This document shows positions 2,663 through 49,783 of a stretch of DNA of 64,000 nucleotides, piece after piece. The notes under the pieces are model-generated. The model searched no databases. It worked only from the letters and a program-made list of their open reading frames with translations, and was not told where the DNA came from. Every line of letters begins with the position of its first letter. The first letter of the stretch is position 1. The stretch lies in NCBI GenBank assembly GCA_900552015.1, contig URXY01000003.1, forward strand, positions 4,808-68,807. Direction: 5' to 3'. Both the position numbers and the translations under genes were made by a program. Origin of the DNA: an uncultured Eubacteriales bacterium (GTDB taxonomy: Bacteria > Bacillota > Clostridia > Oscillospirales > Oscillospiraceae).

Positions 2663-3625
2663 ATGGCAAAAGAAAATGTGCCCGCACCGAAGTTCCGCAC
2701 GAGCATCGGCGGTCAGGCATTGATCGAAGGTATTCTGATGCGCGGACCCGGCAAGCAGGCCATCGTCGTCCGCTCGCCGGAGGGCCTTGTGGAAAAGGTC
2801 GAGGAGCTGACGCTCGTGCGCGATAAGTATCCCATTCTGGGCCTGCCCGTCATCCGCGGTGCGGTGACATTCGTCGACTCGATGGTCAAGGGCGTCAAGG
2901 CGCTGATGTTCTCGGCAGATTACTTCCCCGATGAGGACCTTGCCGAGCCGAGCAAGTTCGACCAGTGGCTTGAAAAGAAGTTCGGCAGTGAGAAAATGTC
3001 GAAGTTCATCACGGCCCTTGCGGTCGTGCTGTCGCTGGGGCTGACGATCCTGCTCTTTTTCCTGCTGCCGACATTTCTGGCAGGGTTCATCGACCCGTTC
3101 ATCAAGAGCGTGACCATCCACAATCTGATCGAATCCATCATCAAGCTCATCATCTTTTTCGGATATTTGCTGCTCTGCTCCAAGCAGAAGGACATTTACC
3201 GCGTGTTCCAGTACCACGGGGCAGAGCACAAGACCATCTTCTGCTATGAGGCGGGCCTGCCGCTGACGGTGGAGAACTGCCGCATCCAGCCGCGCCACCA
3301 TCCGCGCTGCGGCACGAGCTTCCTCTTCGTGGTCGTGGTCGTGTCCATCCTCGTTTCGAGCGTCGTGTTCAGCTTTGTCGAGTGGCGCAACATCTGGGTG
3401 CGCATGGGGTTGCACCTGCTGCTGCTCATCCCCATCGTGGGCGTTTCCTATGAGTTCAACCGCTACGTCGGCGGACACGACAACAAGGTGACGCGCTTTT
3501 TGGCGCGTCCGGGCCTGTGGCTGCAGAACTTCACCACCAACGAGCCCGACGACAGTATGCTCGAGGTCGCGATCCGCGCGCTCGAGCTGGTCATTCCCGA
3601 AGAAAAAGGCAAGGATGCGTGGTAG
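2663..3625 (+). CDS. DUF1385 (YqhQ-like) membrane protein
   Basis: Start chosen at ATG 2663 with RBS AAAGGAGAA 7 nt upstream (the track ORF begins earlier at an alternate codon). Polytopic hydrophobic core. Family typically sits upstream of prmC. Confidence 0.7.
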   Translation: MAKENVPAPKFRTSIGGQALIEGILMRGPGKQAIVVRSPEGLVEKVEELTLVRDKYPILGLPVIRGAVTFVDSMVKGVKALMFSADYFPDEDLAEPSKFDQWLEKKFGSEKMSKFITALAVVLSLGLTILLFFLLPTFLAGFIDPFIKSVTIHNLIESIIKLIIFFGYLLLCSKQKDIYRVFQYHGAEHKTIFCYEAGLPLTVENCRIQPRHHPRCGTSFLFVVVVVSILVSSVVFSFVEWRNIWVRMGLHLLLLIPIVGVSYEFNRYVGGHDNKVTRFLARPGLWLQNFTTNEPDDSMLEVAIRALELVIPEEKGKDAW

Positions 3626-4537: not shown

Positions 4538-5633
<1,096 letters not shown>

Positions 5634-5644
<11 letters not shown>

Positions 5645-6266
5645 GAAGATCGAACGATCGAAGCATAAGCAGGAGCGCGTTCTCGTGTATCTGGAGGGGG
5701 GAGACCTCCTCCAGGTCACCGAGAGCGAGCTTCTGCGTTTCGGTTTATCGATAGGGCTGGACATTGATGATGGGACTGTGGTAGAATTGCAGCAGTCCGG
5801 CGCGCGGAGCGAAACGCGCGTGCGCGCGGCGAACATGATCTCATCCCGTCCGCTGTCGAGGAAAGAGCTTTCGAAAAAGCTCAGGGAAAAGGGCGCGGTC
5901 GAGGCCGACGCCGAATCGGCGTGCGACTGGCTCGAGGAGATCGGCGCGCTCAACGACGCGGAGTACGCCGCGATGCTCGTGCGCCATTACGGCGGCATGG
6001 GTTACGGCGAGGCGAAGATTCGCGACGAGCTCTACCGGCGCGGCGTGCCGCGCGAGCTGTGGGAGGACGCGCTGTCGCAGTCGCCCGACGCGCAGGAGGC
6101 CATTATGTGCGTCATCGCGCAGAAGACAAAGGGCCGCGTGCTCGATGAAAAGGGGCGCAAGCGACTGTCTGATATGCTGCTGCGGCGGGGCTTTGCGTGG
6201 CGCGATGTGCGCGCAGCGCTCGCCCAGATCAGCGAAAATATGACAGAATTCGATTACGAAGAGTAG
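5634..6266 (+). CDS. recX: recombination regulator RecX
   Basis: Lies immediately downstream of recA and overlaps its last 11 nt. Three-repeat helical RecX-like sequence. Start ATG 5634 inferred (the track ORF begins at 5610). Confidence 0.75.
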
Positions 6267-6311: not shown

Positions 6312-7640
6312 ATGCCTTATAACATTTCATTCATTTCTCTTGGCTGTGCCAAAAACCAGGTGAACTGCGAGCAGATGATGGCCACGGTACAGGCCGCGGG
6401 CCATGCAGTGCAGCTCTCGCCCGAGGGGGCGGACGTGGCCGTGGTCAACACCTGCGGCTTTCTGGCCTCTGCCTGCGAGGAGGCCATCGATAATATCTTA
6501 GAGATGGCGGAGCTCAAAAAAGAGGGCAAGCTCAAAAAGATCATCGTCACCGGCTGCATGGCGCAGCGCTACAAGGACGATGTGCTCCATGAGCTGCCCG
6601 AGGTCGACGCGGTGCTCGGCACCGGCAGCTACGGCGAGATCGCCCGCGCGGTCGACGAGGTCATGGCGCCCGGCGGCCTGCGCCCCTGCTACATGGGCGA
6701 TATCCAGAACTGCGCGCAGGGCGGCGCGCGCATTTTGTCCACGCCGTCGTGGTATGCGTATCTGCGTATTGCCGAGGGCTGCGACAACTGCTGTGCCTAC
6801 TGCGTCATTCCGCGCCTGCGCGGCCGTTACCGCAGCCGCCCGATGAACGAACTTCTGGACGAGGCGAGCGAGCTTGCGTCCGCGGGCGTGAAGGAACTCA
6901 TCGTCATCGCGCAGGATATCACGCGCTACGGCACGGACTTAAACGGCGAGCATCAGCTGGCTGCTCTCCTGCGCGAGCTGTGTAAGCTCGATTTCCACTG
7001 GATCCGGCTCCACTACCTCTATCCCGACGACATTACCGATGAGCTCATCGATACCATCGCGCAGGAAGAGAAGATCGTGCCCTATCTCGATATCCCCATT
7101 CAGCACTGCAACGACGCCATTTTGAAGGCGATGAACCGCCGCGACACGAAAGAGAGCATCCGCAAGGTTTTCCACGACCTGCGCGCGCGCATCCCGGGCC
7201 TTGTGCTGCGGACGTCGATCATAGCCGGTCTTCCCGGCGAGGGGGAGAAGGAGTTCGAAGAGCTCTGCGACTTCCTGCGCGAAGAGAAGATCGAGCGCGC
7301 GGGCGTGTTCCCGTTCTCGCCCGAGGAGGGGACGAAGGCCGCGACGATGGAGCACGTTCCGATGGAGGAGGCCCAACGCCGCACGGAGCTTCTGGTCGAC
7401 GTGCAGAGCGATATCATCGACGCATACAACGACTCCGTCCTCGGCGACGTGCGCGAGGTGCTGTGCGAGGGCTGGAGCGAGGAAGCGCAGTCCTATGTCG
7501 GCCGCAGCTACGCCGAATCCGTGGATATCGACGGAAAGATCTACTTTTCCGCAGAACGTGATATCATGGCAGGCGAGTTCGTCAACGTCCGCCTGACCGG
7601 CACGATGGACGGCGAGCTGACCGGCGAAGCGGTCGAATAA
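6312..7640 (+). CDS. rimO: ribosomal protein S12 methylthiotransferase RimO (radical SAM MTTase with TRAM domain)
   Basis: N-terminal MTTase cysteine motif (SLGCAKNQVNCE). Radical-SAM CxxxCxxC (CDNCCAYC). C-terminal TRAM. Lies next to pgsA as in many Clostridia. Confidence 0.8.
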   Translation: MPYNISFISLGCAKNQVNCEQMMATVQAAGHAVQLSPEGADVAVVNTCGFLASACEEAIDNILEMAELKKEGKLKKIIVTGCMAQRYKDDVLHELPEVDAVLGTGSYGEIARAVDEVMAPGGLRPCYMGDIQNCAQGGARILSTPSWYAYLRIAEGCDNCCAYCVIPRLRGRYRSRPMNELLDEASELASAGVKELIVIAQDITRYGTDLNGEHQLAALLRELCKLDFHWIRLHYLYPDDITDELIDTIAQEEKIVPYLDIPIQHCNDAILKAMNRRDTKESIRKVFHDLRARIPGLVLRTSIIAGLPGEGEKEFEELCDFLREEKIERAGVFPFSPEEGTKAATMEHVPMEEAQRRTELLVDVQSDIIDAYNDSVLGDVREVLCEGWSEEAQSYVGRSYAESVDIDGKIYFSAERDIMAGEFVNVRLTGTMDGELTGEAVE

Positions 7641-13399: not shown

Positions 13400-14089
13400 T
13401 CAATGCGGAGAGAGGATGCGCAGCATATCGAGAAAGCTGGACAAGAGGTTTGTAGGGCGGCCATCGGAGATAACGACAGAACCAGAGAGCCCCTCGCAGC
13501 GGACGAAGTAGCGCTCGGCAGAGGAGAGGTTCGTAAATTCACAGCGCGCGGACGCACCATCTACCTTGTAGCACATGATGGGGGACGCATTTTCGGGATC
13601 TGTGACGCTCCAGAGCACGATCTCACCGCTCTGAAGTGCATCAGAGCGGAACGTGACGGTGATCTTCGTGCTGTTGGTGAACAGACGGCGGCCATCGCAG
13701 GTGTCAGCGAAGGTGCTCACTTCGCCATCGGCGAGATTACAGATATTTTCTTCGACTGCGGGGACGAAGGGGTGCTGAGCCTGTATGAGGTGGAGCCATG
13801 AAGCTGCCGCAAGTGAGAGCAGCACGATCAAAAGGATGGCGGCGAGCGTCAGAACCGTGCTGCGGCGACGGCGGCGTTTTTTTACCGTCAGCGCATAGTC
13901 TGCAAGCTTCGGTGTGTCGAGCGGCGGGTGGGTAAGGGCAAAGCGCTCGCTTTGCATTCGCTGCAGCGCTTTCTGACAGCCCGGACAGGCGGCGAGGTGT
14001 TCATCCACCAGTGCACGGCTCTCAGATGAGCAGGTCCCGTCGGCATAGAGCGGCAGAAGATCGCCGATGATGCGGCAGTCGATGTTCAT
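13400..14089 (-). CDS. anti-sigma factor, zinc-finger (zf-HC2 type) with one TM and an extracytoplasmic domain
   Basis: N-terminal motif CPGCQKAL with upstream Cys/His (zf-HC2). Central TM (LTLAAILLIVLLSLAAASWL). Overlaps the ECF sigma gene by 4 nt. Confidence 0.75.
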   Translation of the reverse strand: MNIDCRIIGDLLPLYADGTCSSESRALVDEHLAACPGCQKALQRMQSERFALTHPPLDTPKLADYALTVKKRRRRRSTVLTLAAILLIVLLSLAAASWLHLIQAQHPFVPAVEENICNLADGEVSTFADTCDGRRLFTNSTKITVTFRSDALQSGEIVLWSVTDPENASPIMCYKVDGASARCEFTNLSSAERYFVRCEGLSGSVVISDGRPTNLLSSFLDMLRILSPH

Positions 14090-14571
14090 AGGATACCCTC
14101 CATTTCTTCGATGAGTTTATTTTTGGCGCGGTAGAATGTGACCTTGGCCCACGATTCGGTCCTTCCGAAGATCTCCGCGATATCGCGGAAGCTCAACTCA
14201 CCAAGCACGCGCAGCGTAAAGACCTCGCGGTACGGCTCTTTGAGCCTATGGAGGTATTTGTGGATGTGCAGGGCCTGTTCCCGGTCGGCAAGCAGCGCGA
14301 AAAGGTCGTCTGGGACACTTTGCTCGGGCGATCCGTCCAGGGAAACTGTTCGCTTTTGGCGGTGGAGCTCCTTGTACAGTGCGTTTTTTGCGATTTGGCA
14401 GAGCCAGGTCTCGATACGGCAGTCGCCGCGAAACGCGCCGATGTGCTGGTAAGCCTGATAGAAGGTCTCGGCTGTCAGTTCGTCGGCGAGGTGTTCATCG
14501 CGGCAGAGGGAGAGCAGAAAGTGGTAGACGATAGGGGAAGTACGCTGAAAAATGAGATCAAAGTCATCCAT
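14086..14571 (-). CDS. RNA polymerase sigma-70 factor, ECF subfamily
   Basis: Sigma70 region 2 (ELTAETFYQAYQHIGAFRG...ETWLCQIAKNALY) and region 4 HTH (LSFRDIAEIFGRTESWAKVTFYRAKNKL). Confidence 0.85.
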   Translation of the reverse strand: MDDFDLIFQRTSPIVYHFLLSLCRDEHLADELTAETFYQAYQHIGAFRGDCRIETWLCQIAKNALYKELHRQKRTVSLDGSPEQSVPDDLFALLADREQALHIHKYLHRLKEPYREVFTLRVLGELSFRDIAEIFGRTESWAKVTFYRAKNKLIEEMEGIL

Positions 14572-26292: not shown

Positions 26293-27579
26293 ATGAAAGT
26301 TGCGATCTGTACCCTCGGGTGCAAGGTGAACCAATATGAAACGCAGGCGCTCGAGCAGGAGCTTTTACACCGCGGACACGAGTTGGTGGACTTTGAGGAG
26401 ACGGCGGACGCCTACGTCGTCAACACCTGCTCTGTCACGGCGGTGAGCGACAAAAAGTCGCGCCAGATGCTCCGCCAGGCGCAGCGCCGTAACCCGAGCG
26501 CGGTCATCGCCGCCTGCGGCTGCTACGCCCAGACGCATCCCGAGGACGTCAAAAAGCTCGGGCTCGACGTCATCGCCGGCACGAATGACCGCGCGAAGTT
26601 CATCGACCTTTTGGAGCGCGCGGCACAGGACAAAACGCCTATTGTCGATGTCGACGATGTCTGGGAGCGGCGCGATTTTGAGGTGCTGCCCGCGGGCGGT
26701 ATGGTGAATCGCACACGCGCGATGCTCAAGGTCGAGGACGGGTGCGTGAACTTCTGCACCTACTGCCTCATTCCTTACGCGCGCGGGCGCGTGCGCTCGC
26801 TGCCGATGGACGAAGCTGCAAAGCAGGTGAAAGCGCTGCGTGAGGAGGGCTACCGTGAGATCGTGGTCACGGGCATCGAAATTTCGTCCTACGGCTCGGA
26901 CTTCAAGGACGGGACCTCACTCATCGACCTTTTGGAGCTCATCGCGCGCGAGGGCGGCGACATGCGCATCCGCCTCGGCTCGCTCGAACCGCGGACCATC
27001 ACGGAGGAATTCTGCAAGCGGGCGTCGAAGCTTCCTTACCTTTGCCCACATTTCCACCTCTCGATGCAGTCGGGCTGCGACGCGACCTTAAAGCGTATGA
27101 ACCGCAAATATGATACGGCGCGCTATATGGAATCCTGCGACCTGCTGCGTCAGTATTTTGACGACCCTGCCATCACGACCGACCTCATCACGGGCTTTCC
27201 CGAGGAGACGGAGGAGGAATTCGCGCAGACGCTCGACTTCATCGCGCGTGTCGGCTTTGCCGACATGCACGTCTTCCCTTATTCCATCCGCCCGGGCACG
27301 AAGGCTGCGGAGATGCGCCAGATCGACATGCCCGTGCGCGAAGAGCGCGCTGCGCGCGCCTCGGCTGTCGCCAAGACGATGCACGAAGCGTATCTTGCGT
27401 GCTGCGTGGGCAAGATATTCCCCGTGCTCTTCGAGCGCGACCGCAAGGGCGGCAGCGCGGGCCACGCGCCGAACTATATGGAGGTATCCGTCGCGCAGGA
27501 GGGACTGCACAATCAGGTGAAGAACGTGAAGATCACGGCGGTCGACGGCGGCAGTCTTCGCGGCAATCTGGAGGAATAA
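26293..27579 (+). CDS. mtaB: tRNA t6A37 methylthiotransferase MtaB (radical SAM MTTase)
   Basis: N-terminal TLGCKVNQYE motif, radical-SAM CTYC motif, TRAM-like C-terminus. Distinct from the RimO-type N-terminus at 6312. Confidence 0.8.
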   Translation: MKVAICTLGCKVNQYETQALEQELLHRGHELVDFEETADAYVVNTCSVTAVSDKKSRQMLRQAQRRNPSAVIAACGCYAQTHPEDVKKLGLDVIAGTNDRAKFIDLLERAAQDKTPIVDVDDVWERRDFEVLPAGGMVNRTRAMLKVEDGCVNFCTYCLIPYARGRVRSLPMDEAAKQVKALREEGYREIVVTGIEISSYGSDFKDGTSLIDLLELIAREGGDMRIRLGSLEPRTITEEFCKRASKLPYLCPHFHLSMQSGCDATLKRMNRKYDTARYMESCDLLRQYFDDPAITTDLITGFPEETEEEFAQTLDFIARVGFADMHVFPYSIRPGTKAAEMRQIDMPVREERAARASAVAKTMHEAYLACCVGKIFPVLFERDRKGGSAGHAPNYMEVSVAQEGLHNQVKNVKITAVDGGSLRGNLEE

Positions 27580-29950: not shown

Positions 29951-30493
29951 ATGAAACGGGAGCTGCGCCGATGGGAGATCATCGGCTTTGCCGCAACAGG
30001 CCTTGCTGGGACGCTGCTGCACTTTGTCTACGAATGGTCGGGTGGGAACCGTGTGGTCGCGGCGTTTTCGGCGATCAACGAGTCGACCTGGGAGCACATG
30101 AAGCTGCTGTTCATTCCGTTTTTAGTCTTCACGGTGGTGGAGTTCATCGTGTTTTCGGAGGCGTTTCGGAATTTCTTTGCCGTCAAGGCGGCGAGCATCC
30201 TGCTGGGGCTCATCGCTATCCCGGTGCTCTTCTATACGCTGACGGGGATATTCGGCAAGCTTCCGGACTGGGTGAATATCACGATCTTTTTCCTGGCCGA
30301 CGCGCTTTTGTACTTTGTGAGCTACCGCATGCTGGCGGACGGGCGGCTGCGCGGAGGCGCGGTGCAGCTCGCGGGCTTTGTGCTTATGTGGCTGCTGCTG
30401 TTCACCTTCGTCTGGTGCACGTACCGCCCGCCGCACCTGCCGCTGTTTCTCGACCCTGTGAGCGGCTGCTACGGACTCGATGTTCCCTGCTGA
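29951..30493 (+). CDS. hypothetical membrane protein (DUF6512-like)
   Basis: Start ATG 29951 with RBS GGGAGG. 5-6 TM helices. Confidence 0.5.
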   Translation: MKRELRRWEIIGFAATGLAGTLLHFVYEWSGGNRVVAAFSAINESTWEHMKLLFIPFLVFTVVEFIVFSEAFRNFFAVKAASILLGLIAIPVLFYTLTGIFGKLPDWVNITIFFLADALLYFVSYRMLADGRLRGGAVQLAGFVLMWLLLFTFVWCTYRPPHLPLFLDPVSGCYGLDVPC

Positions 30494-30526
30494 AAAAAAG
30501 GCTCCCGCTGCGGCGGGAGCCTTTGC
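30494..30526 (+). terminator. rho-independent terminator
   Basis: A-run, stem GGCTCCCGC / GCGGGAGCC, then TTT. Confidence 0.65.
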
Positions 30527-30753
30527 TGCTGATATACAAAGAGTATTATCACGGAATTCTTGCAGATCGGATATGGCAAAGCGGCGAAAATGACAGCTTC
30601 TTCATCGGGGAAGAGAAGCAATGCTGCTCGACAAAAGTTGCCAAAAGACGAATGGAGCCGTGTTTTTGCGACCTTGTTCGATCGCTTTAGCGCACTTGAG
30701 CGGGAAAGCGACAAATTAACATAACGATTTCAATAAATCGATACTACGGTGAG

Positions 30754-30783
30754 TTATCCACAGTTTCCACAGAGTTTTCCACA
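30754..30783 (+). promoter_or_regulatory. cluster of three same-orientation DnaA-box-like 9-mers (TTATCCACA perfect, TTTTCCACA 8/9, GTTTCCACA 7/9)
   Basis: Read directly: GAGTTATCCACAGTTTCCACAGAGTTTTCCACACAGG in the intergenic region between convergent genes. Confidence 0.5.
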
Positions 30784-30952
30784 CAGGGCGGAAAACGAAA
30801 ACAGCCTTATTTTACGGGAGTTCAGGCAGTCGCTTTCGGAGAGTGGAAAAACTTGACACAGACTTTACAGCGTGTCGAAATTTACATAATATTGAAGTTG
30901 GTAAAATTATTGCAGAACAGATTTTCGATTTGTTACCATAACAGACGGATTT

Positions 30953-31064
30953 TGCAAGACGATGTAAATGTCTTGCAGCCCGCGGTGCAGCGGGGGGGCT
31001 GCACCGCCTGAAAGGCAAGTCAAAGGGGATGTTCTCTTTTGCGAAAGAGAACATCCCCTTTGAC
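30953..31064. repeat. three consecutive strong hairpins: 8-bp stem 30953..30977; 10-bp GC stem with G-tract loop 30982..31007; perfect 21-bp palindrome with TGCG loop 31019..31064
   Basis: Inverted repeats verified by reverse-complementing each arm. The region lies 36 nt beyond the tsaD stop. Confidence 0.7.
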
Positions 31065-31100
31065 TGTGACAGCATGGGGTGCTGCGCCTTAGTTATTTTT

Positions 31101-32117
31101 TCAAACGATGGGATCGTCGATATCCCGTGTCGCATACGCGTTGAGCGACCAGTCTGCACGCGCGCCGGCGAGGTATTCGTAGTAGCCCTGCGCGCCGATC
31201 ATCGCGCCGTTGTCGCCGCAGAGCTTCAGCGGCGGCATATAGAGCCGATAGCTGCGCTTCTGGCACTCTTTTTCGAGCGCTGCGCGGATGAAGGAGTTTG
31301 CCGCCACGCCGCCTGCGGCGGCGAGCGTTTTGTGCCCGCTTTGCTCCATGGCGAGCATCGCGCGCGGCACGAGCTCGTCGATGACCGCCTGCGTGAAGTC
31401 GCGCGCAAGCGCGGCGCGGTCAAGCTGCTTTCCGGTCTGCTCGGCGTTGTGCGCAAGGTTCACGACGGCAGTCTTGAGACCAGAGAAGCTCATATCGAGC
31501 GGGCAGCCGTCGATCTTCGCGCGCGGCAGCTCGTAGACGCCGCCCTTGCTCTCGTGGGCAAGCTTGTCCATCGCCGCGCCGCCGGGGTAGGGAAGACCGA
31601 GCACGCGCGCGGCCTTGTCGAAGCATTCGCCCGCCGCGTCGTCGCGTGTCGCGCCGAGGAGCGCAAAGTCCGTATAATCGCGCACATCAACGATGAGCGT
31701 GTTGCCGCCGGACATGCACAGCGCCAGAAATGGTGGCTCGAGCTCGGGAAACGCCAAGTAATTTGCGGCGATATGGCCGCGGATATGGTGCACGGGGATG
31801 AGCGGCACGTTCAGCGCATAGGCCGCGCTCTTGGCGAAGTTCAGCCCCACGAGCACCGCACCGATGAGCCCCGGTGCGTAGGTCGCGGCCACGGCATCGA
31901 TTTCTTTTTTCTCGACGCCTGCCTCTTTGAGAGCCTGATCGGTCAGCGCGGCGATGGCCTCGATGTGCTTGCGCGATGCGATCTCCGGCACGACGCCGCC
32001 GTAGAGCGCGTGCAGGTCAGCCTGCGACGCGATGGCGTCGGAGAGGATCTTGCGACCGTCCTCGACGACCGCGACGGCGGTCTCGTCGCAGGAGGACTCG
32101 AAAGCGAGAATTTTCAT
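31101..32117 (-). CDS. tsaD: tRNA N6-adenosine threonylcarbamoyltransferase TsaD
   Basis: Start MKILAFESSCDETAVAVV with conserved metal-binding His pair (PVHHIRGH). The ATG at 32117 carries a GGAGG RBS; the upstream part of the track ORF is an alternate-start artifact. Confidence 0.95.
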   Translation of the reverse strand: MKILAFESSCDETAVAVVEDGRKILSDAIASQADLHALYGGVVPEIASRKHIEAIAALTDQALKEAGVEKKEIDAVAATYAPGLIGAVLVGLNFAKSAAYALNVPLIPVHHIRGHIAANYLAFPELEPPFLALCMSGGNTLIVDVRDYTDFALLGATRDDAAGECFDKAARVLGLPYPGGAAMDKLAHESKGGVYELPRAKIDGCPLDMSFSGLKTAVVNLAHNAEQTGKQLDRAALARDFTQAVIDELVPRAMLAMEQSGHKTLAAAGGVAANSFIRAALEKECQKRSYRLYMPPLKLCGDNGAMIGAQGYYEYLAGARADWSLNAYATRDIDDPIV

Positions 32118-32602
32118 TGTTTTGCCTCCGCTTCCGCCGCACCAAATTCCTTCGTCATGATGATGGCATCCTCTTTCGGGTGGTCGTAGTAGTTCTTGCG
32201 GCGGCCCTCGCCGCGGAAGCCGCGGCTGCCGTAGAGCGAGATGGCGGCATAGTTGCTCTCGCGTACCTCCAGCGTCAAAAACGCAAGGCTGCTGCCCTCG
32301 GCGAAGCGGATGAACACGTCGAGAAGCTGACCCGCCACACCGCCGCGGCGGCAGTCGGGGCGGACGGCCATCTTGGTGATGCAGCCCTCGTCCGCGACGG
32401 CGAGAAGTCCCGCGTAGCCGACGACGCTGTCGGCCTCTGCGTCCAGCGCGACTAAGAAAGCCGAGCACGCGTTTTCGAGCTCCTCTGCGAGCATGTTGCG
32501 CGACCAGGGGTTCGAGAAGCATGTGCGCTCAAGCTCGGCCACGTCGTTCAAATATTCGTTCGTCATCGGTACGATGCGGACCTTTTTCTTTAGCTGTTCC
32601 AT
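32114..32602 (-). CDS. rimI: ribosomal-protein-alanine N-acetyltransferase RimI (GNAT)
   Basis: GNAT motifs (ITKMAVRPDCRRGGVAGQLL). 4-nt overlap with tsaD. Confidence 0.85.
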   Translation of the reverse strand: MEQLKKKVRIVPMTNEYLNDVAELERTCFSNPWSRNMLAEELENACSAFLVALDAEADSVVGYAGLLAVADEGCITKMAVRPDCRRGGVAGQLLDVFIRFAEGSSLAFLTLEVRESNYAAISLYGSRGFRGEGRRKNYYDHPKEDAIIMTKEFGAAEAEAKQ

Positions 32603-32615
32603 TGGTTTCCTCCGG

Positions 32616-35276
32616 TCATTTGGCTTCCAGCCAGTTTTTGCCCCAGTGGGCCTCGGCGGTCAGGGGAACGGAGAGGTGCACTGCGCCCTCCATCTCCTCG
32701 GTGAGGAGCCGTGCGACCGTCTCCTTTTCCTCCTCCGGGCACTCGACGATGAGTTCGTCGTGCACCTGCAAAATGAGCTTTGCCTTTAAGTTTTCCTTGT
32801 GCAGCCGCTCGTCGACGCGCACCATCGCGAGCTTGATGACGTCCGCGGCTGTGCCCTGGATGGGCATGTTGCGCGCCACACGTTCGCCGAACGAACGGGT
32901 ATTGAAGTTGCTCGCCGTCAGCTCGGGCAGCGCACGGCGGCGGTGCATCAGTGTTTCGACATAGCCGCGCTCTTTCGCCTGCGCGACGACCTCGTCCATA
33001 TAGCGGCGGATGCCGGGGAAGCGCTCAAAGTACGTCTCGATATATTCCTTCGCCTCGTACACCGGCACGCCGATGTCCTGCGCGAGCGAGAAGGCGGAAA
33101 TGCCGTACACGATGCCGAAGTTGACGGCCTTCGCGTGCGAGCGCATCTGCTTGGTGACCTGATCAGTCGGCACGCCGAAGACCTGCGAGGCGGTGACGGT
33201 GTGAATGTCCTCGCCGGTCAGAAACGCCTGCTTCATCGCCTCGTCGTCCGCGATGTGCGCAAGCAGGCGCAGCTCGATCTGGCTGTAGTCCGCGTCAACG
33301 AGCACGCAGCCGCTTGCTGGGACGAACATCCGGCGAAATTCGCTGCCGAGCTTTGTGCGCGTGGGGATGTTCTGCAAATTCGGCTCGGTCGAGCTGAGGC
33401 GCCCCGTCGCCGTGACGGTCATCTGGAAGCTCGTGTGGATGCGCCCGTCGGGCGCGATGACCTTCAAAAGGCCGTCGCAATAGGTCGAGCGGAACTTTGC
33501 GTACTGGCGGTATTGCAGCACTTCTTCAACGATGGGATTTTCCCAGCGGAGCTTTTCAAGCACGTCCGCGTTCGTCGACCAGCCGGTTTTCGTCTTTTTG
33601 CCGTGCGGCAGCTGCAAGCGCTCAAAGAGCACCTCGCCGAGCTGCTTGGGGGAGTTGATGTTGAACGGCCCACCGGCTTCTTCGTAGATGTGCTGCTCGA
33701 GCGTTTTGAGCTGGGCTTCCATCTCATTGCCGAACGCCGCGAGAGCGTTGGCATCGACGCGCATGCCCGCGTGCTCCATGCGTGCGAGCACGGCGCAGAG
33801 GGGCAGCTCTACCTTGTAATAGAGCTCGTGCAGCTCGCGCTTTTCGATTTCGGGGGAAAGGGTCTCATACAGCGCGTCGACGGCGCTGACATAGATGTGG
33901 AATGCCGTCTCGGCCCCCGCGGTGTCGCCGAGCATCGAGAAAGCCTCAGGTTCCAAGTGCTTCGGCTCAGCGAGCGTCTGGTGGAAGTAGGCGGCGAAGA
34001 GCGAGGCAATGTCATACTTGCCCGCCGTCGCGTCGAGAAGATACCCTGCGAGCGCGACGTCGAAGATGAAGCCGTCAATGGGAAGACCGTTTTCGAGGAG
34101 TGTGCGCTGCAAGTCCTTGACGTTGTGGCTGACCTTTTTGATATCGTCCGAGAACAGGGCGCGCAGCAGCGCGTTCCAGTCGCCCTCGTAGCGGTTAAAG
34201 TAGAATTCGGCAGAGACGGCAGTGCTTTCACCCGTATCACAGTCGACGATCACGCCGGAGAGGTCGGGCAGCGCCAGCAGCGTCACGTACTCCGCCTTGC
34301 GGAAGAGCGCGAGCAGCTCGTCCGCGTGCGTTTCCGCGCTCACGACCTCAGCCGTCACGGTGAGGTCCTTCGGCGCTTCGGCGGCGGGAAGGTCGGCGGA
34401 CGGCTTGAGGCCGTATTTGTCGATGAGCTTCGTGAACTCTAACTTCATAAAGAGCGGGTAGAGCGCATCTGATGGCGATTTGCGCAGATTGTCCTGCGGG
34501 GAAAATTCGAGCGGCGCGTCCGTCACGATGGTTGCAAGGTGGAAGCTCTGGTGCGCGCTCTCCTCACCCTCGGTGAGCTTTTTGATGACGTTCGGCTTTG
34601 CCTCGATATCCGGCAGCAGACGGTAAATTTCGTCGATGCTCTGATATTTCTGGATGAGCGCCGTCGCCGTCTTTTCGCCAACACCCGGGACGCCGGGGAT
34701 GTTGTCGCTCGCGTCGCCCATCAGGGCCTTGAGGTCGACGATGTGGACGGGGGCGAAGCCGTAGCATTCAAAAAACGTCTCGGGCGTCATGTCCTTCGTC
34801 GTGGTCTGACCCATGCGCGTTGAGATGAGCTTGACGGTCGTGTGGTCGGTGACAAGCTGCAAAGAATCCTTGTCTCCCGTGGCGACGACGCAGTCCCAGC
34901 CCTCTTTTTCGCACTTGCGCGAGATCGTGCCGATGAGGTCGTCCGCTTCAAAGCCGACGAGCTCGTAGCGGGGAATGTTCATCGCGTCGAGCACGTCCTT
35001 CAAAACGGGGATCTGCATGGCGAGTTCCTCGGGCATGGCATGGCGCGTGGCCTTGTAGCCCTCATATTCCAGGTGACGGAAGGTCGGCTCGCGGCGGTCG
35101 AAGGCGACGCAGAGCGCCTCGGGCTTTTCCTCATCCAGAAGACGGCCCAGCATCGTCACAAAGCCGAAAATCGCGTGGGTGAAAAAGCCGTCGCGTGTCG
35201 TGAGCGGACGGACACCGTAATAGGCGCGGTTGACGATGGAGTTGCCGTCAAGCACCATCAATTTCATGGGAAGCAC
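32616..35276 (-). CDS. polA: DNA polymerase I
   Basis: 5'-3' exonuclease domain (MVLDGNSIVNRAYYG). 3'-5' exo-like middle. Pol A motifs (DYSQIELRLLAH ... QVHDEL). RBS GGGAGG before ATG 35276. Confidence 0.97.
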   Translation of the reverse strand: MLPMKLMVLDGNSIVNRAYYGVRPLTTRDGFFTHAIFGFVTMLGRLLDEEKPEALCVAFDRREPTFRHLEYEGYKATRHAMPEELAMQIPVLKDVLDAMNIPRYELVGFEADDLIGTISRKCEKEGWDCVVATGDKDSLQLVTDHTTVKLISTRMGQTTTKDMTPETFFECYGFAPVHIVDLKALMGDASDNIPGVPGVGEKTATALIQKYQSIDEIYRLLPDIEAKPNVIKKLTEGEESAHQSFHLATIVTDAPLEFSPQDNLRKSPSDALYPLFMKLEFTKLIDKYGLKPSADLPAAEAPKDLTVTAEVVSAETHADELLALFRKAEYVTLLALPDLSGVIVDCDTGESTAVSAEFYFNRYEGDWNALLRALFSDDIKKVSHNVKDLQRTLLENGLPIDGFIFDVALAGYLLDATAGKYDIASLFAAYFHQTLAEPKHLEPEAFSMLGDTAGAETAFHIYVSAVDALYETLSPEIEKRELHELYYKVELPLCAVLARMEHAGMRVDANALAAFGNEMEAQLKTLEQHIYEEAGGPFNINSPKQLGEVLFERLQLPHGKKTKTGWSTNADVLEKLRWENPIVEEVLQYRQYAKFRSTYCDGLLKVIAPDGRIHTSFQMTVTATGRLSSTEPNLQNIPTRTKLGSEFRRMFVPASGCVLVDADYSQIELRLLAHIADDEAMKQAFLTGEDIHTVTASQVFGVPTDQVTKQMRSHAKAVNFGIVYGISAFSLAQDIGVPVYEAKEYIETYFERFPGIRRYMDEVVAQAKERGYVETLMHRRRALPELTASNFNTRSFGERVARNMPIQGTAADVIKLAMVRVDERLHKENLKAKLILQVHDELIVECPEEEKETVARLLTEEMEGAVHLSVPLTAEAHWGKNWLEAK

Positions 35277-49503: not shown

Positions 49504-49783
49504 GGCCTTTGCGGCAGTATCAGAAATGAGTGTGTTCCGCGATGAGGTCGTTGACAGTCGTATCCAGCATGACGCTCAGGACGTAGAAGTTATCCACACT
49601 CGGCAGGCTTCGACCCGCCTGCCGGTGGTACACCGCCTGTGGGCAGGCAGCGCCATCTGCATGATATAAAAAGCAAATTGTAGTTGAAATTATGAGAAAA
49701 TGTGATATATTTAGAACAATACCAGTGAAAACGAGGTGTGTGCCGTGAAAAAGAACTTGACATCGCGCTTCGCGGTGCAATAC

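What the first reader, a model, noticed from the sequence alone, without database searches (positions are those of the whole stretch)
30560..31100. 600-bp structured intergenic region between convergent genes: DnaA-box cluster plus three strong hairpins including a perfect 21-bp palindrome
Convergent genes rarely leave 600 bp of spacer. This one contains the following elements:
- Three same-orientation DnaA-box-like 9-mers within 30 bp (TTATCCACA, GTTTCCACA, TTTTCCACA at 30754..30783).
- A TTGACA -35-like element at 30853.
- Three consecutive hairpins: an 8-bp stem at 30953..30977, a 10-bp GC stem with a G6-7 loop at 30982..31007, and a perfect 21-bp stem GTCAAAGGGGATGTTCTCTTT/AAAGAGAACATCCCCTTTGAC at 31019..31064.
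None of the hairpins has a canonical U-tract, so they are not simple terminators for tsaD. Possibilities: an sRNA gene; a DnaA-titrating box cluster (analogous to B. subtilis DBCs); a binding site for a dimeric regulator or recombinase; or a REP-like element. The G7 homopolymer in one loop is also slippage-prone.
Basis: seen in the sequence. Interest (0 to 1): 0.55.

Follow-up and report, generated by a model that had tools for sequence, protein, structure and literature searches.

The report
Conserved DnaA-binding site after tsaD
The spacer holds a conserved cluster of three binding sites for the replication initiator DnaA just after the tsaD gene, the same odd position as a DnaA-bound cluster of unknown role in Bacillus subtilis; the three hairpins are species-specific 3'-end structures.

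Summary
In detail: a 607-bp spacer (30494..31100) lies between convergent genes, DUF6512 on + and polA-rimI-tsaD on -. It holds three same-orientation DnaA-like boxes (30754..30783) and three strong hairpins.

The two parts behave differently. The hairpins, including the 22-bp perfect palindrome, occur only in strains of this species. Relatives carry an ordinary terminator there.

The box triplet is the conserved part. A ~180-bp module built around it lies 100-900 bp after tsaD, on the tsaD strand, in 39 of 75 related Oscillospiraceae species, whatever gene follows. It shows no conserved RNA structure and no conserved reading frame.

B. subtilis has a DnaA-box cluster at the same place, the 3' ends of convergent gcp(=tsaD) and ydiF. 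DnaA binds it in vivo and in vitro, and its role is unknown. I fetched that spacer: it has the same box polarity relative to tsaD and the same abutting head-to-tail box pair.

The same triple-box layout recurs in clostridial jag/mnmE regions and in phage contigs, so it looks like a generic DnaA-binding unit.

New here are two copies of TTAYGTnAAC at fixed distances, -107 and +59. They resemble the XerD arm of dif; what binds them is unknown.

It is not an origin, a terminus, an sRNA or a REP element.

The parts
30754..30783 (-). Three head-to-tail DnaA boxes. On the tsaD-sense (-) strand they read TGTGGAAAA-CTC-TGTGGAAAC-TGTGGATAA, a 9-3-9-0-9 layout. The box farthest from tsaD is a perfect consensus box.
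   Evidence: This is the most conserved part of the spacer in relatives. The same layout occurs in jag/mnmE regions and in phage contigs. B. subtilis has the abutting pair TGTGGATAG|TGTGTATAA after tsaD.
30705..30898 (-). The whole conserved module of about 190 bp: U motif, a length-constrained A-rich linker, the three boxes, CT..TGTAG, TTATnGA and the D motif.
   Evidence: The nhmmer profile hits the window once, envelope 30705..30788, and hits 39 species loci. The anchored alignment is A2. RNAalifold finds 0 pairs and no frame is open across species.
30880..30889 (-). Upstream flank motif (U): TTATGTAAAT on the tsaD-sense strand, 106 nt before box 1.
   Evidence: It lies 105-110 nt before box 1 in 71 modules and nowhere else within 400 bp either side. 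It matches XerD-arm sequences of dif sites.
30715..30724 (-). Downstream flank motif (D): TTATGTTAAT on the tsaD-sense strand, 59 nt after the start of box 1.
   Evidence: It lies at +58/59 in most modules. In several species it reads as the palindrome TTTACGTAAA.
30932..30941 (-). Third, degenerate copy of the flank motif (TTATGGTAAC). It is shared with L012 and L013.
   Evidence: (repeat D11). The same variant serves as the U or D motif in L090, L052 and L054.
30842..30850 (+). Weak DnaA-like box in the opposite orientation (AGTGGAAAA on the + strand).
   Evidence: inverted repeat I19. It is conserved only in L012 and L013, and is not part of the family-wide module.
30497..30524 (.). Bidirectional intrinsic terminator: a 12-bp GC-rich hairpin with an A-run on one side and a T-run on the other. 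It has 7 U on the - strand and UUUG on the + strand.
   Evidence: I7; -23 and -25.3 kcal/mol, z -6.1 and -5.0. It ends the DUF6512 transcript and any - strand transcript that crosses the module.
31018..31065 (.). 22-bp perfect palindrome with a 4-nt loop. On the tsaD-sense strand it is followed by UUGCCUUUC. It is most likely the main tsaD 3'-end or terminator hairpin of this species.
   Evidence: I1; -36.8 kcal/mol, z -9.6. It is found only in same-species assemblies L001-L010. L012 and L013 have a canonical terminator in its place.
30982..31007 (.). 10-bp GC hairpin with a G/C homopolymer loop.
   Evidence: I12; z -3.4. The G7 run is invariant in the aligned strains. The hairpin is not conserved in L012 or L013.
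30953..30977 (.). 8-bp hairpin. Its tsaD-distal arm overlaps sequence shared with L012 and L013 (CTTGCAAAATCCG).
   Evidence: I21; z -4.6.
31101..32117 (-). tsaD, the last gene of a polA-rimI-tsaD run on the - strand. The module is anchored to its 3' end.
   Evidence: Pfam TsaD hit at 1e-87. Gene order.
29951..30493 (+). DUF6512 membrane-protein gene, convergent with tsaD. This neighbour is not conserved.
   Evidence: Beyond L012 and L013 the neighbour is replaced by other genes.

Best explanation
**What it is.** The functional core of the spacer is a chromosomal DnaA-box cluster (DBC). It is a cis-acting DNA site, not a gene.

**How it most likely works.**
- Three head-to-tail 9-mers lie on the tsaD-sense strand: TGTGGAAAA-3 nt-TGTGGAAAC-0 nt-TGTGGATAA.
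- They offer one consensus box and two near-consensus boxes in the close same-orientation spacing that lets domain IV-bound DnaA molecules contact each other through their AAA+ domains.
- The site should therefore nucleate a short, cooperative oligomer that prefers ATP-DnaA.
- It is the positional and architectural counterpart of the B. subtilis cluster DBC[gcp-ydiF].
- The most likely role is a secondary DnaA-binding locus that helps set how much active DnaA is free for oriC, by titration or regulation, as shown collectively for the six B. subtilis DBCs.

**What is added in Oscillospiraceae.** The triplet sits in a fixed ~180-bp module. Two TTAYGTnAAC motifs lie about 166 bp (about 16 helical turns) apart, which suggests that a second sequence-specific protein binds both ends and shapes the complex.

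**The hairpins.** The three hairpins next to tsaD are a separate, species-specific feature. They are most simply the 3'-end or terminator structures of the polA-rimI-tsaD transcript. The terminator at 30497..30524 stops whatever reads through.

**Shown:** the sequence, the conservation, the architecture and the correspondence with B. subtilis.

**Inferred:** DnaA binding in this organism, oligomer formation, and the titration or regulatory role.
For: 1. **Conservation.**
 - blastn of the spacer against 80 species loci aligns essentially only 30752..30783 in distant relatives.
 - An nhmmer profile finds one copy on the tsaD strand, 100-900 bp after tsaD, in 39 of 75 informative species.
 - DnaA-box density is 3.7 per kb there against 0.38 per kb in control sequence.
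 - The neighbouring gene varies and is co-directional or convergent about equally, 19 against 17.

2. **It acts as DNA.** The 33-species alignment gives 0 consensus base pairs. No reading frame is open across species. There is no Rfam hit and no tRNA.

3. **The boxes are DnaA-type.**
 - One is a perfect TTATCCACA.
 - The same 9-3-9-0-9 triplet recurs in unrelated clostridial contexts, including the jag/mnmE region, which is another B. subtilis DBC site.
 - It also recurs in 23 viral contigs.

4. **Literature.**
[quoted passage not shown] That cluster is conserved in Bacillus species and its role is unclear (PMC2533591).
 - It is among the strongest sites in vitro: Kd 0.15 uM for ATP-DnaA and a 16-fold preference for ATP-DnaA at 55 nM (PMC4447404).
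 - Deleting all six DBCs causes early initiation (PMC3245932).

5. **Direct comparison with Bacillus.** The fetched spacers of B. subtilis, B. velezensis and one further Bacillus genome (TsaD 81% identical) carry most boxes as TGTGGATAA on the tsaD-sense strand. They include abutting pairs (TGTGGATAG|TGTGTATAA; TGTGGATAA|AGTGGATAA-CT) and are followed by a bidirectional terminator.

6. **Wider linkage to tsaD.** Of 72 metagenome loci found through the box pattern alone, 20 have the tsaD 3' end just upstream. Three of these have distant TsaD (47-66% identity) and lack the flank motifs.

7. **Hairpins.** Every relative has its own GC hairpin with a T-run after tsaD. The window's palindrome exists only in this species.
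Against: - No binding data exist for this organism, and it has only 3 strong boxes where B. subtilis has 8-10.
- Half of the related species lack the module after tsaD, including the closest one (L011, 94% TsaD identity).
- Complete modules also occur after other genes: an AEC transporter, an RluD-like gene, cysK and an ABC-2 permease. The tsaD position is therefore frequent but not obligatory, and common descent with the Bacillus cluster is not proven.
- In B. subtilis, deleting DBC[gcp-ydiF] alone had no effect, and re-inserting it did not rescue the six-fold deletion. A titration role for this particular cluster is weakly founded.
- In some lineages all three boxes read TGTTGA, which departs from the classical box at a base that is normally specific.
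- The flank motifs are unexplained.
Confidence: 0.68

Rival explanations
1. DnaA acts here as a transcription factor rather than being titrated. The boxes would overlap a weak tsaD-sense promoter: TGGAAA at 30769..30764, a 17-nt spacer, then TAGTAT at 30746..30741. They would also lie across the path of read-through from tsaD. Bound DnaA would then repress or block a short - strand transcript of about 210-240 nt that ends at the 7-U terminator at 30497..30524. In relatives it would control the next co-directional gene.
For: - The - strand terminator lies after the module, and L012 and L013 have an equivalent tsaD-sense terminator.
- The conserved CT..TGTAG just after box 3 could be part of a -10 element: TAGTAT in the window, TAGAAT in L012 and L013.
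- In about half of the relatives a co-directional gene follows, sometimes with a ribosome-binding site within 50 nt.
- Box polarity follows tsaD, not the direction of replication.
- DnaA regulates sda, ywlC and yydA from comparable clusters in B. subtilis.
Against: - The hexamers match only 8 of 12 positions and fall below the scan threshold.
- The -10-like hexamer lacks its final T in most species.
- The following gene is convergent as often as co-directional.
- The putative transcript shows no conserved structure or reading frame.
- In B. subtilis this cluster was judged 'uncharacteristic for transcriptional regulation'.
Confidence: 0.17
2. The module is a composite site for DnaA plus a second protein, with the flanks doing the main work. 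Two XerD-like or other dimeric-regulator sites (TTAYGTnAAC) 166 bp apart would loop or bracket the DnaA triplet. This would make a datA/DARS-like device that changes the nucleotide state of DnaA, or a chromosome-organisation landmark such as an SMC roadblock or unloading site.
For: - The flank motifs lie only at -105..-110 and +58/59 in 71 modules, while the linker sequence between them drifts.
- In the 64-kb window the motif occurs only twice, both times here.
- Its variants (TTATGTAAAC, TTATGTTAAC, TTATGGTAAC) are the variants seen in XerD arms of dif sites.
- From my own knowledge: XerD-only sites (XDS) that act without recombination exist in B. subtilis (Karaboja 2021, cited), and E. coli datA and DARS2 combine DnaA boxes with IHF or Fis sites.
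Against: - No XerC arm or central region is present, so these are not dif sites.
- The locus lies in mid-replichore, whereas XDS are terminus-specific.
- In some species the D motif is a perfect palindrome (TTTACGTAAA), which fits a dimeric regulator better than a XerD monomer.
- The Bacillus clusters lack the motif.
- Identifying the binding protein is pure inference.
Confidence: 0.12
3. The spacer encodes a + strand small RNA of about 200 nt. It would start at the promoter-like site TTTACA-17-TAATAT (30864..30892), contain the three hairpins, and end at the weak stem plus T-run at 31075..31100, convergent with tsaD.
For: A promoter-like and a terminator-like site lie on the + strand. The three hairpins are far more stable than shuffled sequence. 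The region is identical across strains.
Against: - There is no Rfam family; only spurious microRNA-model hits to the palindrome.
- The -35 element and all three hairpins are missing in L012 and L013.
- The '+ terminator' stem is no better than shuffles (z -0.37).
- A perfect palindrome folds equally well on both strands, so it says nothing about which strand is transcribed.
Confidence: 0.05
4. The region is a replication origin (or an origin-like unwinding module), a terminus/dif site, or a repeated or mobile palindromic element.
For: [quoted passage not shown] The flank motif resembles a dif arm. The module occurs in several genomic contexts.
Against: - GC skew is positive on both sides and most genes on both sides lie on the + strand, so this is mid-replichore.
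- The flanking genes converge, and dnaA and dnaN were not seen among the genes identified.
- DnaA-trios are absent from the window. They should lie 5' of box 1 on the TGTGGATAA strand, where the sequence is instead T-rich (GTTTTCGTTTTCCGCCCTG).
- There is no XerC arm.
- The palindrome and the module are both single-copy in 64 kb. The linker sequences are not conserved between species, which argues against recent mobility.
Confidence: 0.03

Closest known systems
B. subtilis DnaA-box cluster DBC[gcp-ydiF] (Ishikawa 2007; Okumura 2012; Smith & Grossman 2015)
   Same: - It is an intergenic DnaA-box cluster just after tsaD (gcp), between convergent genes, and it regulates no obvious gene.
- Most boxes read TGTGGATAA on the tsaD-sense strand.
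- It contains a directly abutting head-to-tail pair.
- A bidirectional terminator closes the spacer.
   Different: - B. subtilis has 8-10 boxes spread over about 150 bp, including one in the opposite orientation. The window has 3 strong boxes in 30 bp.
- The Bacillus spacers lack the TTAYGTnAAC flanks and the fixed 107/59-nt spacing.
- The neighbour is ydiF there and variable here.
- tsaD is co-directional with replication in B. subtilis and head-on here.
- DnaA binding is demonstrated only in Bacillus.
E. coli datA and DARS1/DARS2 loci
   Same: They are non-origin chromosomal DnaA-box clusters of a few boxes in a defined arrangement. In datA and DARS2 the boxes are combined with sites for a second DNA-bending protein at fixed positions, and the loci tune initiator activity. 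This comparison rests on my own knowledge.
   Different: There is no sequence or positional homology. Box orientations differ, and the partner proteins (IHF, Fis) are absent from Firmicutes. No activity on the nucleotide state of DnaA is known or testable here.
Box part of the oriC basal unwinding system (BUS: tandem DnaA boxes + DnaA-trios + AT-rich DNA)
   Same: Both have co-oriented tandem boxes at most 3 bp apart, with the best box farthest from the flanking GC-rich cluster.
   Different: The window has no DnaA-trio array and no AT-rich unwinding element. There is no GC-skew switch, and dnaA and dnaN were not seen among the genes identified. The flanking genes converge.
XerD arm of dif / XerD-only sites (XDS)
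   Same: The flank motifs match the 10-11-nt XerD arm (TTATGTAAACT, TTATGTTAACT, TTATGGTAACT).
   Different: There is no XerC arm or 6-bp central region. The two copies are direct repeats 166 bp apart in mid-replichore, not at the terminus.

Membership tests
DnaA-box cluster (DBC) of the B. subtilis gcp-ydiF type | At least 3 DnaA boxes (TTATNCACA with few mismatches) packed within tens of bp | tested here: met
   There are 3 boxes in 30 bp with 0, 2 and 1 mismatches, plus one weak inverted box. In relatives the three boxes mostly have 0-1 mismatch.
DnaA-box cluster (DBC) of the B. subtilis gcp-ydiF type | Location in the spacer just 3' of tsaD/gcp | tested here: met
   In the window box 1 starts 318 bp after the tsaD stop. 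The module is present in 39 of 75 species loci and in 20 of 72 pattern-selected metagenome loci.
DnaA-box cluster (DBC) of the B. subtilis gcp-ydiF type | Same box polarity and abutting head-to-tail pair as the Bacillus cluster | tested here: met
   B. subtilis L092 has TGTGGATAG|TGTGTATAA, and L094 has TGTGGATAA|AGTGGATAA-CT, on the tsaD-sense strand. The window has TGTGGAAAC|TGTGGATAA-CT.
DnaA-box cluster (DBC) of the B. subtilis gcp-ydiF type | Stable DnaA binding with a preference for ATP-DnaA | not testable with these tools
   This is known only for B. subtilis.
DnaA-box cluster (DBC) of the B. subtilis gcp-ydiF type | Common descent with the Bacillus cluster (presence in intervening Firmicutes lineages) | tested here: inconclusive
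   Three distant tsaD loci (47-66% identity) also carry a triple box about 110 nt after tsaD. However, 36 of 75 relatives lack it, and no systematic survey of other families was possible.
Replication origin / basal unwinding system | DnaA-trio array (at least 3 repeats of 5'-TAG-like triplets with a middle A) within about 16 bp of the boxes, followed by AT-rich DNA | tested here: not met
   On the TGTGGATAA strand the sequence 5' of box 1 is GTTTTCGTTTTCCGCCCTG, which is T-rich. The orientation rule was taken from the C. difficile trio sequence and from the BUS definition.
Replication origin / basal unwinding system | Sign change of GC skew and divergent gene orientation | tested here: not met
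   Skew is positive over all 64 kb. Genes are mostly on the + strand on both sides, and the flanking genes converge.
Intrinsic terminator | GC-rich hairpin followed directly by a U-run on the transcribed strand | tested here: met
   The hairpin at 30497..30524 has a 12-bp stem and 7 U on the - strand.
Intrinsic terminator | The same, for the 22-bp palindrome after tsaD | tested here: inconclusive
   The tail is UUGCCUUUC (5 U in 9) and the scan lists it as terminator-like. A 22-bp stem is atypically long. Relatives have canonical terminators at this place.
Known RNA families / structured sRNA | A match to an Rfam model, or a conserved structure with covariation | tested here: not met
   No hit reaches gathering score, and only microRNA models match the palindrome below threshold. 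RNAalifold gives 0 pairs on 33 species.
REP / MITE-like repeated palindromic element | Many copies per genome | tested here: not met
   The window holds one copy in 64 kb, even allowing 3 mismatches. There is none in 204 loci of other organisms and none in viral contigs. The whole genome was not available.
dif / XerCD site | 28-bp site: XerC arm, 6-bp centre, XerD arm, at the terminus | tested here: not met
   Only the XerD-arm-like 10-mer is conserved. The 17 nt before it are not conserved. The locus is in mid-replichore.

The most novel reading that the evidence does not exclude
The ~180-bp module is a previously undescribed two-protein chromosomal device of Clostridia. A DnaA trimer-nucleating site would be bracketed, about 16 helical turns apart, by two half-sites for XerD or for another TTAYRTAA-binding dimer. 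Together they would form a looped complex that controls initiator activity (a Firmicute functional analogue of datA/DARS) or marks the chromosome for SMC or segregation machinery. Its repeated placement after tsaD in both Bacilli and Clostridia would then reflect an ancient functional coupling rather than chance.
Probability: 0.13. Interest if true: 0.8.

Novelty: new variant of a known kind. Interest (0 to 1): 0.52.

Why it matters

A counterpart now appears in gut Oscillospiraceae, a different class of Firmicutes. It has the same polarity relative to tsaD and a strictly conserved architecture. This argues that such clusters are selected in their own right.

It also gives a compact test object: three boxes and two flank motifs in 180 bp. 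That is far simpler than the Bacillus cluster.

The flank motifs point to an unidentified partner protein. The recurring 9-3-9-0-9 triplet is a candidate minimal DnaA-oligomer nucleation unit in Clostridia and their phages.

If the boxes do not bind DnaA, the module would be an unexplained conserved DNA element, which would be more interesting still.

Tried and rejected
- **Known RNA or tRNA.** Rfam at gathering score over the window, and at E up to 10 over the region, gave only microRNA-model noise on the palindrome. There is no tRNA or tmRNA.
- **Structured RNA in the conserved module.** RNAalifold predicts nothing.
- **Small protein.**
  - No frame is open across species.
  - A 12-codon GTG..TAG mini-ORF across the boxes exists in many TGTGG-type species.
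  - It has no start codon in TGTTG-type species and no ribosome-binding site in the window lineage, so I dropped it.
- **oriC / BUS.** I first misjudged which side the trios should be on. I re-derived the rule from the C. difficile trio sequence and the E. coli R1/DUE order (my own knowledge). The correct side is T-rich in the window, although several relatives have purine-rich, weakly trio-like sequence there. GC skew and gene orientation exclude an origin or a terminus.
- **Full dif site.** Only the XerD-arm-like part is present.
- **Sigma-70 promoters built on the flank motifs.** TTnACA could serve as a -35, but the -10 positions are not conserved.
- **Sporulation-sigma, PhoP, WalR, TnrA, PlcR, Zur/PerR, BlaI and parS-like readings of TTAYGTnAAC.** I compared these from memory and none fits. 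They were not tested further.
- **Spo0A boxes.** The GTCGAA core is about 2.6-fold enriched near modules but has no fixed position.
- **A dedicated promoter for the next gene.** The orientation of that gene is about 50:50.
- **REP or mobile origin of the palindrome.** No other copy was found anywhere I could search.
- **Literature search for the flank motif string.** It returned only dif tables and primers.
- **The XDS paper (PMC7897262).** It was not available.
Full report
**1. What is in the sequence**

The window is about 59% G+C. GC skew is positive throughout and most genes on both sides lie on the + strand, so the locus sits in mid-replichore with + as the leading strand.

The spacer 30494..31100 (607 bp, 41-50% G+C) separates two convergent gene sets:
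- a + strand run that ends with a DUF6512 membrane-protein gene (29951..30493);
- a - strand run polA (32616..35276), rimI (32114..32602), tsaD (31101..32117).

The palindrome is in fact 22 bp (31018..31065).

The hairpins fold far better than shuffled sequence. On the tsaD-sense strand the z-scores are -9.6, -3.4 and -4.6.

- A terminator at 30497..30524, whose U-run (7 U) lies on the - strand.
- A weak inverted box at 30842..30850.
- Two copies of TTATGTnAAT on the - strand, at 30880..30889 and 30715..30724. These are the only two matches to TTAYGTNAAY in 64 kb.

**2. The hairpins and the boxes have different histories**

Ten metagenome contigs encode an identical TsaD. The seven whose spacers I aligned are nearly identical to the window, G7 run included, with 5 variable columns in 633. 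They are strains of one species and say nothing about constraint.

I then fetched the tsaD loci of 80 species representatives with TsaD identity of 94-64%. By their record titles they are Oscillospiraceae: Oscillibacter, Dysosmobacter, Pseudoflavonifractor, Faecousia and others.

blastn of the spacer against these loci gave the following:
- The tsaD-proximal 140 nt, which holds the palindrome and the G-loop hairpin, matches nothing, not even L012 and L013 (92-93% TsaD identity).
- A 32-nt core, window 30752..30783, matches more than 25 species. This core is exactly the three boxes.

Each relative has its own GC-rich hairpin with a T-run directly after tsaD. L012, for example, has GCGCGGGCC...GGCCCGCGC-CTTTCTTTTTT.

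The window's palindrome is found only in the same-species contigs. It is unique in the window even with 3 mismatches allowed and absent from viral contigs.

I conclude that the hairpins are a lineage-specific replacement of the tsaD 3'-end or terminator region:
- On the tsaD-sense strand the 22-bp stem is followed by UUGCCUUUC, and the scan calls it terminator-like.
- Its unusual length is unexplained.
- I found nothing to support an sRNA. There is no Rfam match, the + strand -35 element is not conserved in L012, and the + strand 'terminator' stem is no better than shuffles.

**3. The conserved module**

A profile of the conserved block finds:
- one hit in the window;
- one hit in each of 39 of the 75 species loci that have at least 300 bp after tsaD.

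In the species loci the hit is always on the tsaD strand and 100-900 bp after the stop codon. In those loci the 1 kb after tsaD has 3.7 DnaA boxes per kb, against 0.38 per kb in control sequence. The 36 loci without the module are at background, 0.46 per kb.

The neighbouring gene differs between species: DUF6512, RadC-like, GNAT and others. It is co-directional in 19 loci and convergent in 17.

On the tsaD-sense strand the module reads, in order:
- TTATGTAAAC, the U motif;
- a linker of about 97 nt, conserved in length and A-richness but hardly in sequence;
- TGTGGAAAA-N3-TGTGGAWAA-TGTGRATAA, the three boxes;
- CT-N3-TGTAG;
- TTATnGA;
- TTAYGTnAAC, the D motif.

U starts 105-110 nt before box 1 and D starts 58-59 nt after the start of box 1. 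Across 71 modules from two independent searches, the motif occurs nowhere else within 400 bp either side. U and D are therefore about 166 bp apart, or about 16 helical turns.

RNAalifold predicts no base pair on the 33-species alignment, and no frame stays open across species. The module acts as DNA.

**4. Why the boxes are read as DnaA boxes**

- Box 3 is the consensus TTATCCACA in the window and in many relatives. Boxes 1 and 2 differ from it by one or two bases.
- A scan of metagenome contigs with the triplet pattern alone returned 80 loci.
  - 31 have the U and/or D flanks.
  - 49 have the same 9-3-9-0-9 triplet in other settings.
  - Among those other settings, the triplet lies inside mnmE/trmE next to jag. 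That is the origin-proximal neighbourhood, where B. subtilis has another DnaA cluster, thdF-jag.
- The triplet also occurs in 23 IMG/VR viral contigs, sometimes with a fourth abutting box.

A layout that recurs in chromosomes and phages, with no shared flanking sequence, is what a protein-binding unit looks like.

The close co-oriented spacing is that of the tandem boxes described for origin unwinding modules, at most 3 bp apart.

In some lineages all three boxes have changed together to TGTTGA. This points to one reader protein for all three, but it departs from the classical box.

**5. The match with Bacillus**

The literature reports the following:
[quoted passage not shown] - gcp is tsaD.
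- In vitro it is among the strongest sites, with Kd 0.15 uM for ATP-DnaA. It is one of the two sites with the largest preference for ATP-DnaA (PMC4447404).
- Deleting all six non-origin clusters causes early initiation. Deleting gcp-ydiF alone has no measurable effect, and re-inserting it alone does not rescue (PMC3245932).

I then fetched the real Bacillus spacers:
- Its contigs showed tsaE-tsaB-rimI-tsaD followed by the convergent ABC-F gene.

On the tsaD-sense strand the B. subtilis spacer reads, in order:
- TTATCCACA;
- GATGGATAA;
- AGTGGATAA;
- the abutting pair TGTGGATAG|TGTGTATAA;
- TGTGGATAA;
- a bidirectional terminator.

B. velezensis keeps the pair. A further Bacillus genome (P0117, TsaD 81% identical) has TGTGGATAA|AGTGGATAA-CT.

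Position, strand polarity relative to tsaD, the abutting pair and the closing terminator are therefore shared with the window.

Polarity follows tsaD rather than replication. From the contig coordinates, tsaD is co-directional with replication in B. subtilis. In the window it is head-on.

**6. Limits of the tsaD link**

- Among 72 pattern-selected metagenome loci with enough upstream sequence, 20 have the tsaD 3' end just upstream, at a median of 231 nt. That is far above chance for one gene among thousands.
- Three of these have distant TsaD (47-66% identity) and lack complete flanks.
- Complete U/D modules also occur after an AEC transporter, an RluD-like gene, cysK and an ABC-2 permease.
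- Half of the relatives, including the closest species L011, have no module after tsaD.

The placement is thus frequent but not obligatory. I cannot decide between common descent and convergence with Bacillus.

**7. The flank motifs**

Their variants (TTATGTAAAC, TTATGTTAAC, TTATGGTAAC) coincide with XerD-arm sequences of dif sites tabulated for many bacteria (PMC2731167), and with the B. subtilis dif arm TTATGTAAACT (my own knowledge).

They are not dif sites, because there is no XerC arm, no central region and no terminus context.

In several species D is the perfect palindrome TTTACGTAAA, which would suit a dimeric regulator.

The Bacillus spacers do not carry the motif.

The binding protein is unknown. 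The fixed spacing with a drifting linker suggests a protein-protein or looping constraint.

**8. Mechanism and confidence**

The best-supported reading is a secondary chromosomal DnaA-binding locus: a short cooperative ATP-DnaA oligomer nucleated on three co-oriented boxes. I give about 0.8 that DnaA binds, and 0.68 for the overall explanation.

Its physiological output is inferred by analogy. The candidates are titration or regulation of the initiator, or a roadblock or operator acting on tsaD-sense transcription that ends at 30497..30524. The output is uncertain even in B. subtilis.

Origin, terminus, sRNA, small protein and REP readings were tested and rejected; see the membership table.

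**9. Verdict**

The element is a new variant of a known kind. Interest is moderate:
- It extends an unexplained Bacillus feature to Clostridia.
- It defines a compact module with unknown partner sites.
- It is directly testable.

Noticed in passing
L118, L120, L105, L122, L163 (metagenome loci; box positions as): In some Clostridia the same triple DnaA box lies inside the mnmE/trmE coding sequence, where it translates as ..DVDNCVDNVYKLL... It sits just after jag, in the neighbourhood where B. subtilis has its thdF-jag DnaA cluster.
   Followed up: partly
L044, L049, L063, L089, L090 (and partly L030, L032, L064, L079, L088): All three boxes of the module read TGTTGA instead of TGTGGA in the same genome. 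This is a concerted change at a normally specific base. In these lineages the conserved TGTAG after box 3 is also lost.
   Followed up: no
L011:5015-5900: The closest other species (TsaD 94% identical) lacks the whole module. After tsaD it has only a canonical terminator and a convergent membrane-protein gene, so the module can be gained, lost or moved between close relatives.
   Followed up: partly
window 30873..30879 (+), and around modules in relatives: A perfect Spo0A-box-like TGTCGAA lies beside the U motif. The GTCGAA core is about 2.6-fold enriched within 300 bp of modules (31 observed, 11.7 expected) but has no fixed position.
   Followed up: partly
L215-L237 (IMG/VR viral contigs): Twenty-three viral or prophage contigs carry the same 9-3-9-0-9 DnaA-box triplet, some with a fourth abutting box (TTGTGGATAATGTGGAAAACTATGTGGAAAATGTGGATAA). 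Their gene context was not examined.
   Followed up: no
window 2788..2796 (-) and 49590..49598 (+): Two further isolated matches to TTWTCCACA occur elsewhere in the window. Neither is clustered.
   Followed up: no
window 6312..7640 (+) and 26293..27579 (+): Two MiaB/MtaB-like radical-SAM methylthiotransferase genes (UPF0004 + Radical_SAM) lie within 20 kb of each other. The window also holds recA-recX (4538..6266) and an ECF sigma/anti-sigma pair (13400..14571, -).
   Followed up: no
window 30682..30711: An imperfect 12-bp hairpin (TCGCTTTAGCGC / GCGGGAAAGCGA) lies directly after the D motif. A similar hairpin is present at the same place in L012 and L013. Its role is unknown.
   Followed up: no
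L094:4230-4300: In one Bacillus genome (P0117, TsaD 81% identical to B. subtilis) the string CATGTAAAC lies a few nt before a forward DnaA box in the tsaD-ydiF spacer. It shares 8 nt with the Oscillospiraceae flank motif. This may be chance.
   Followed up: no
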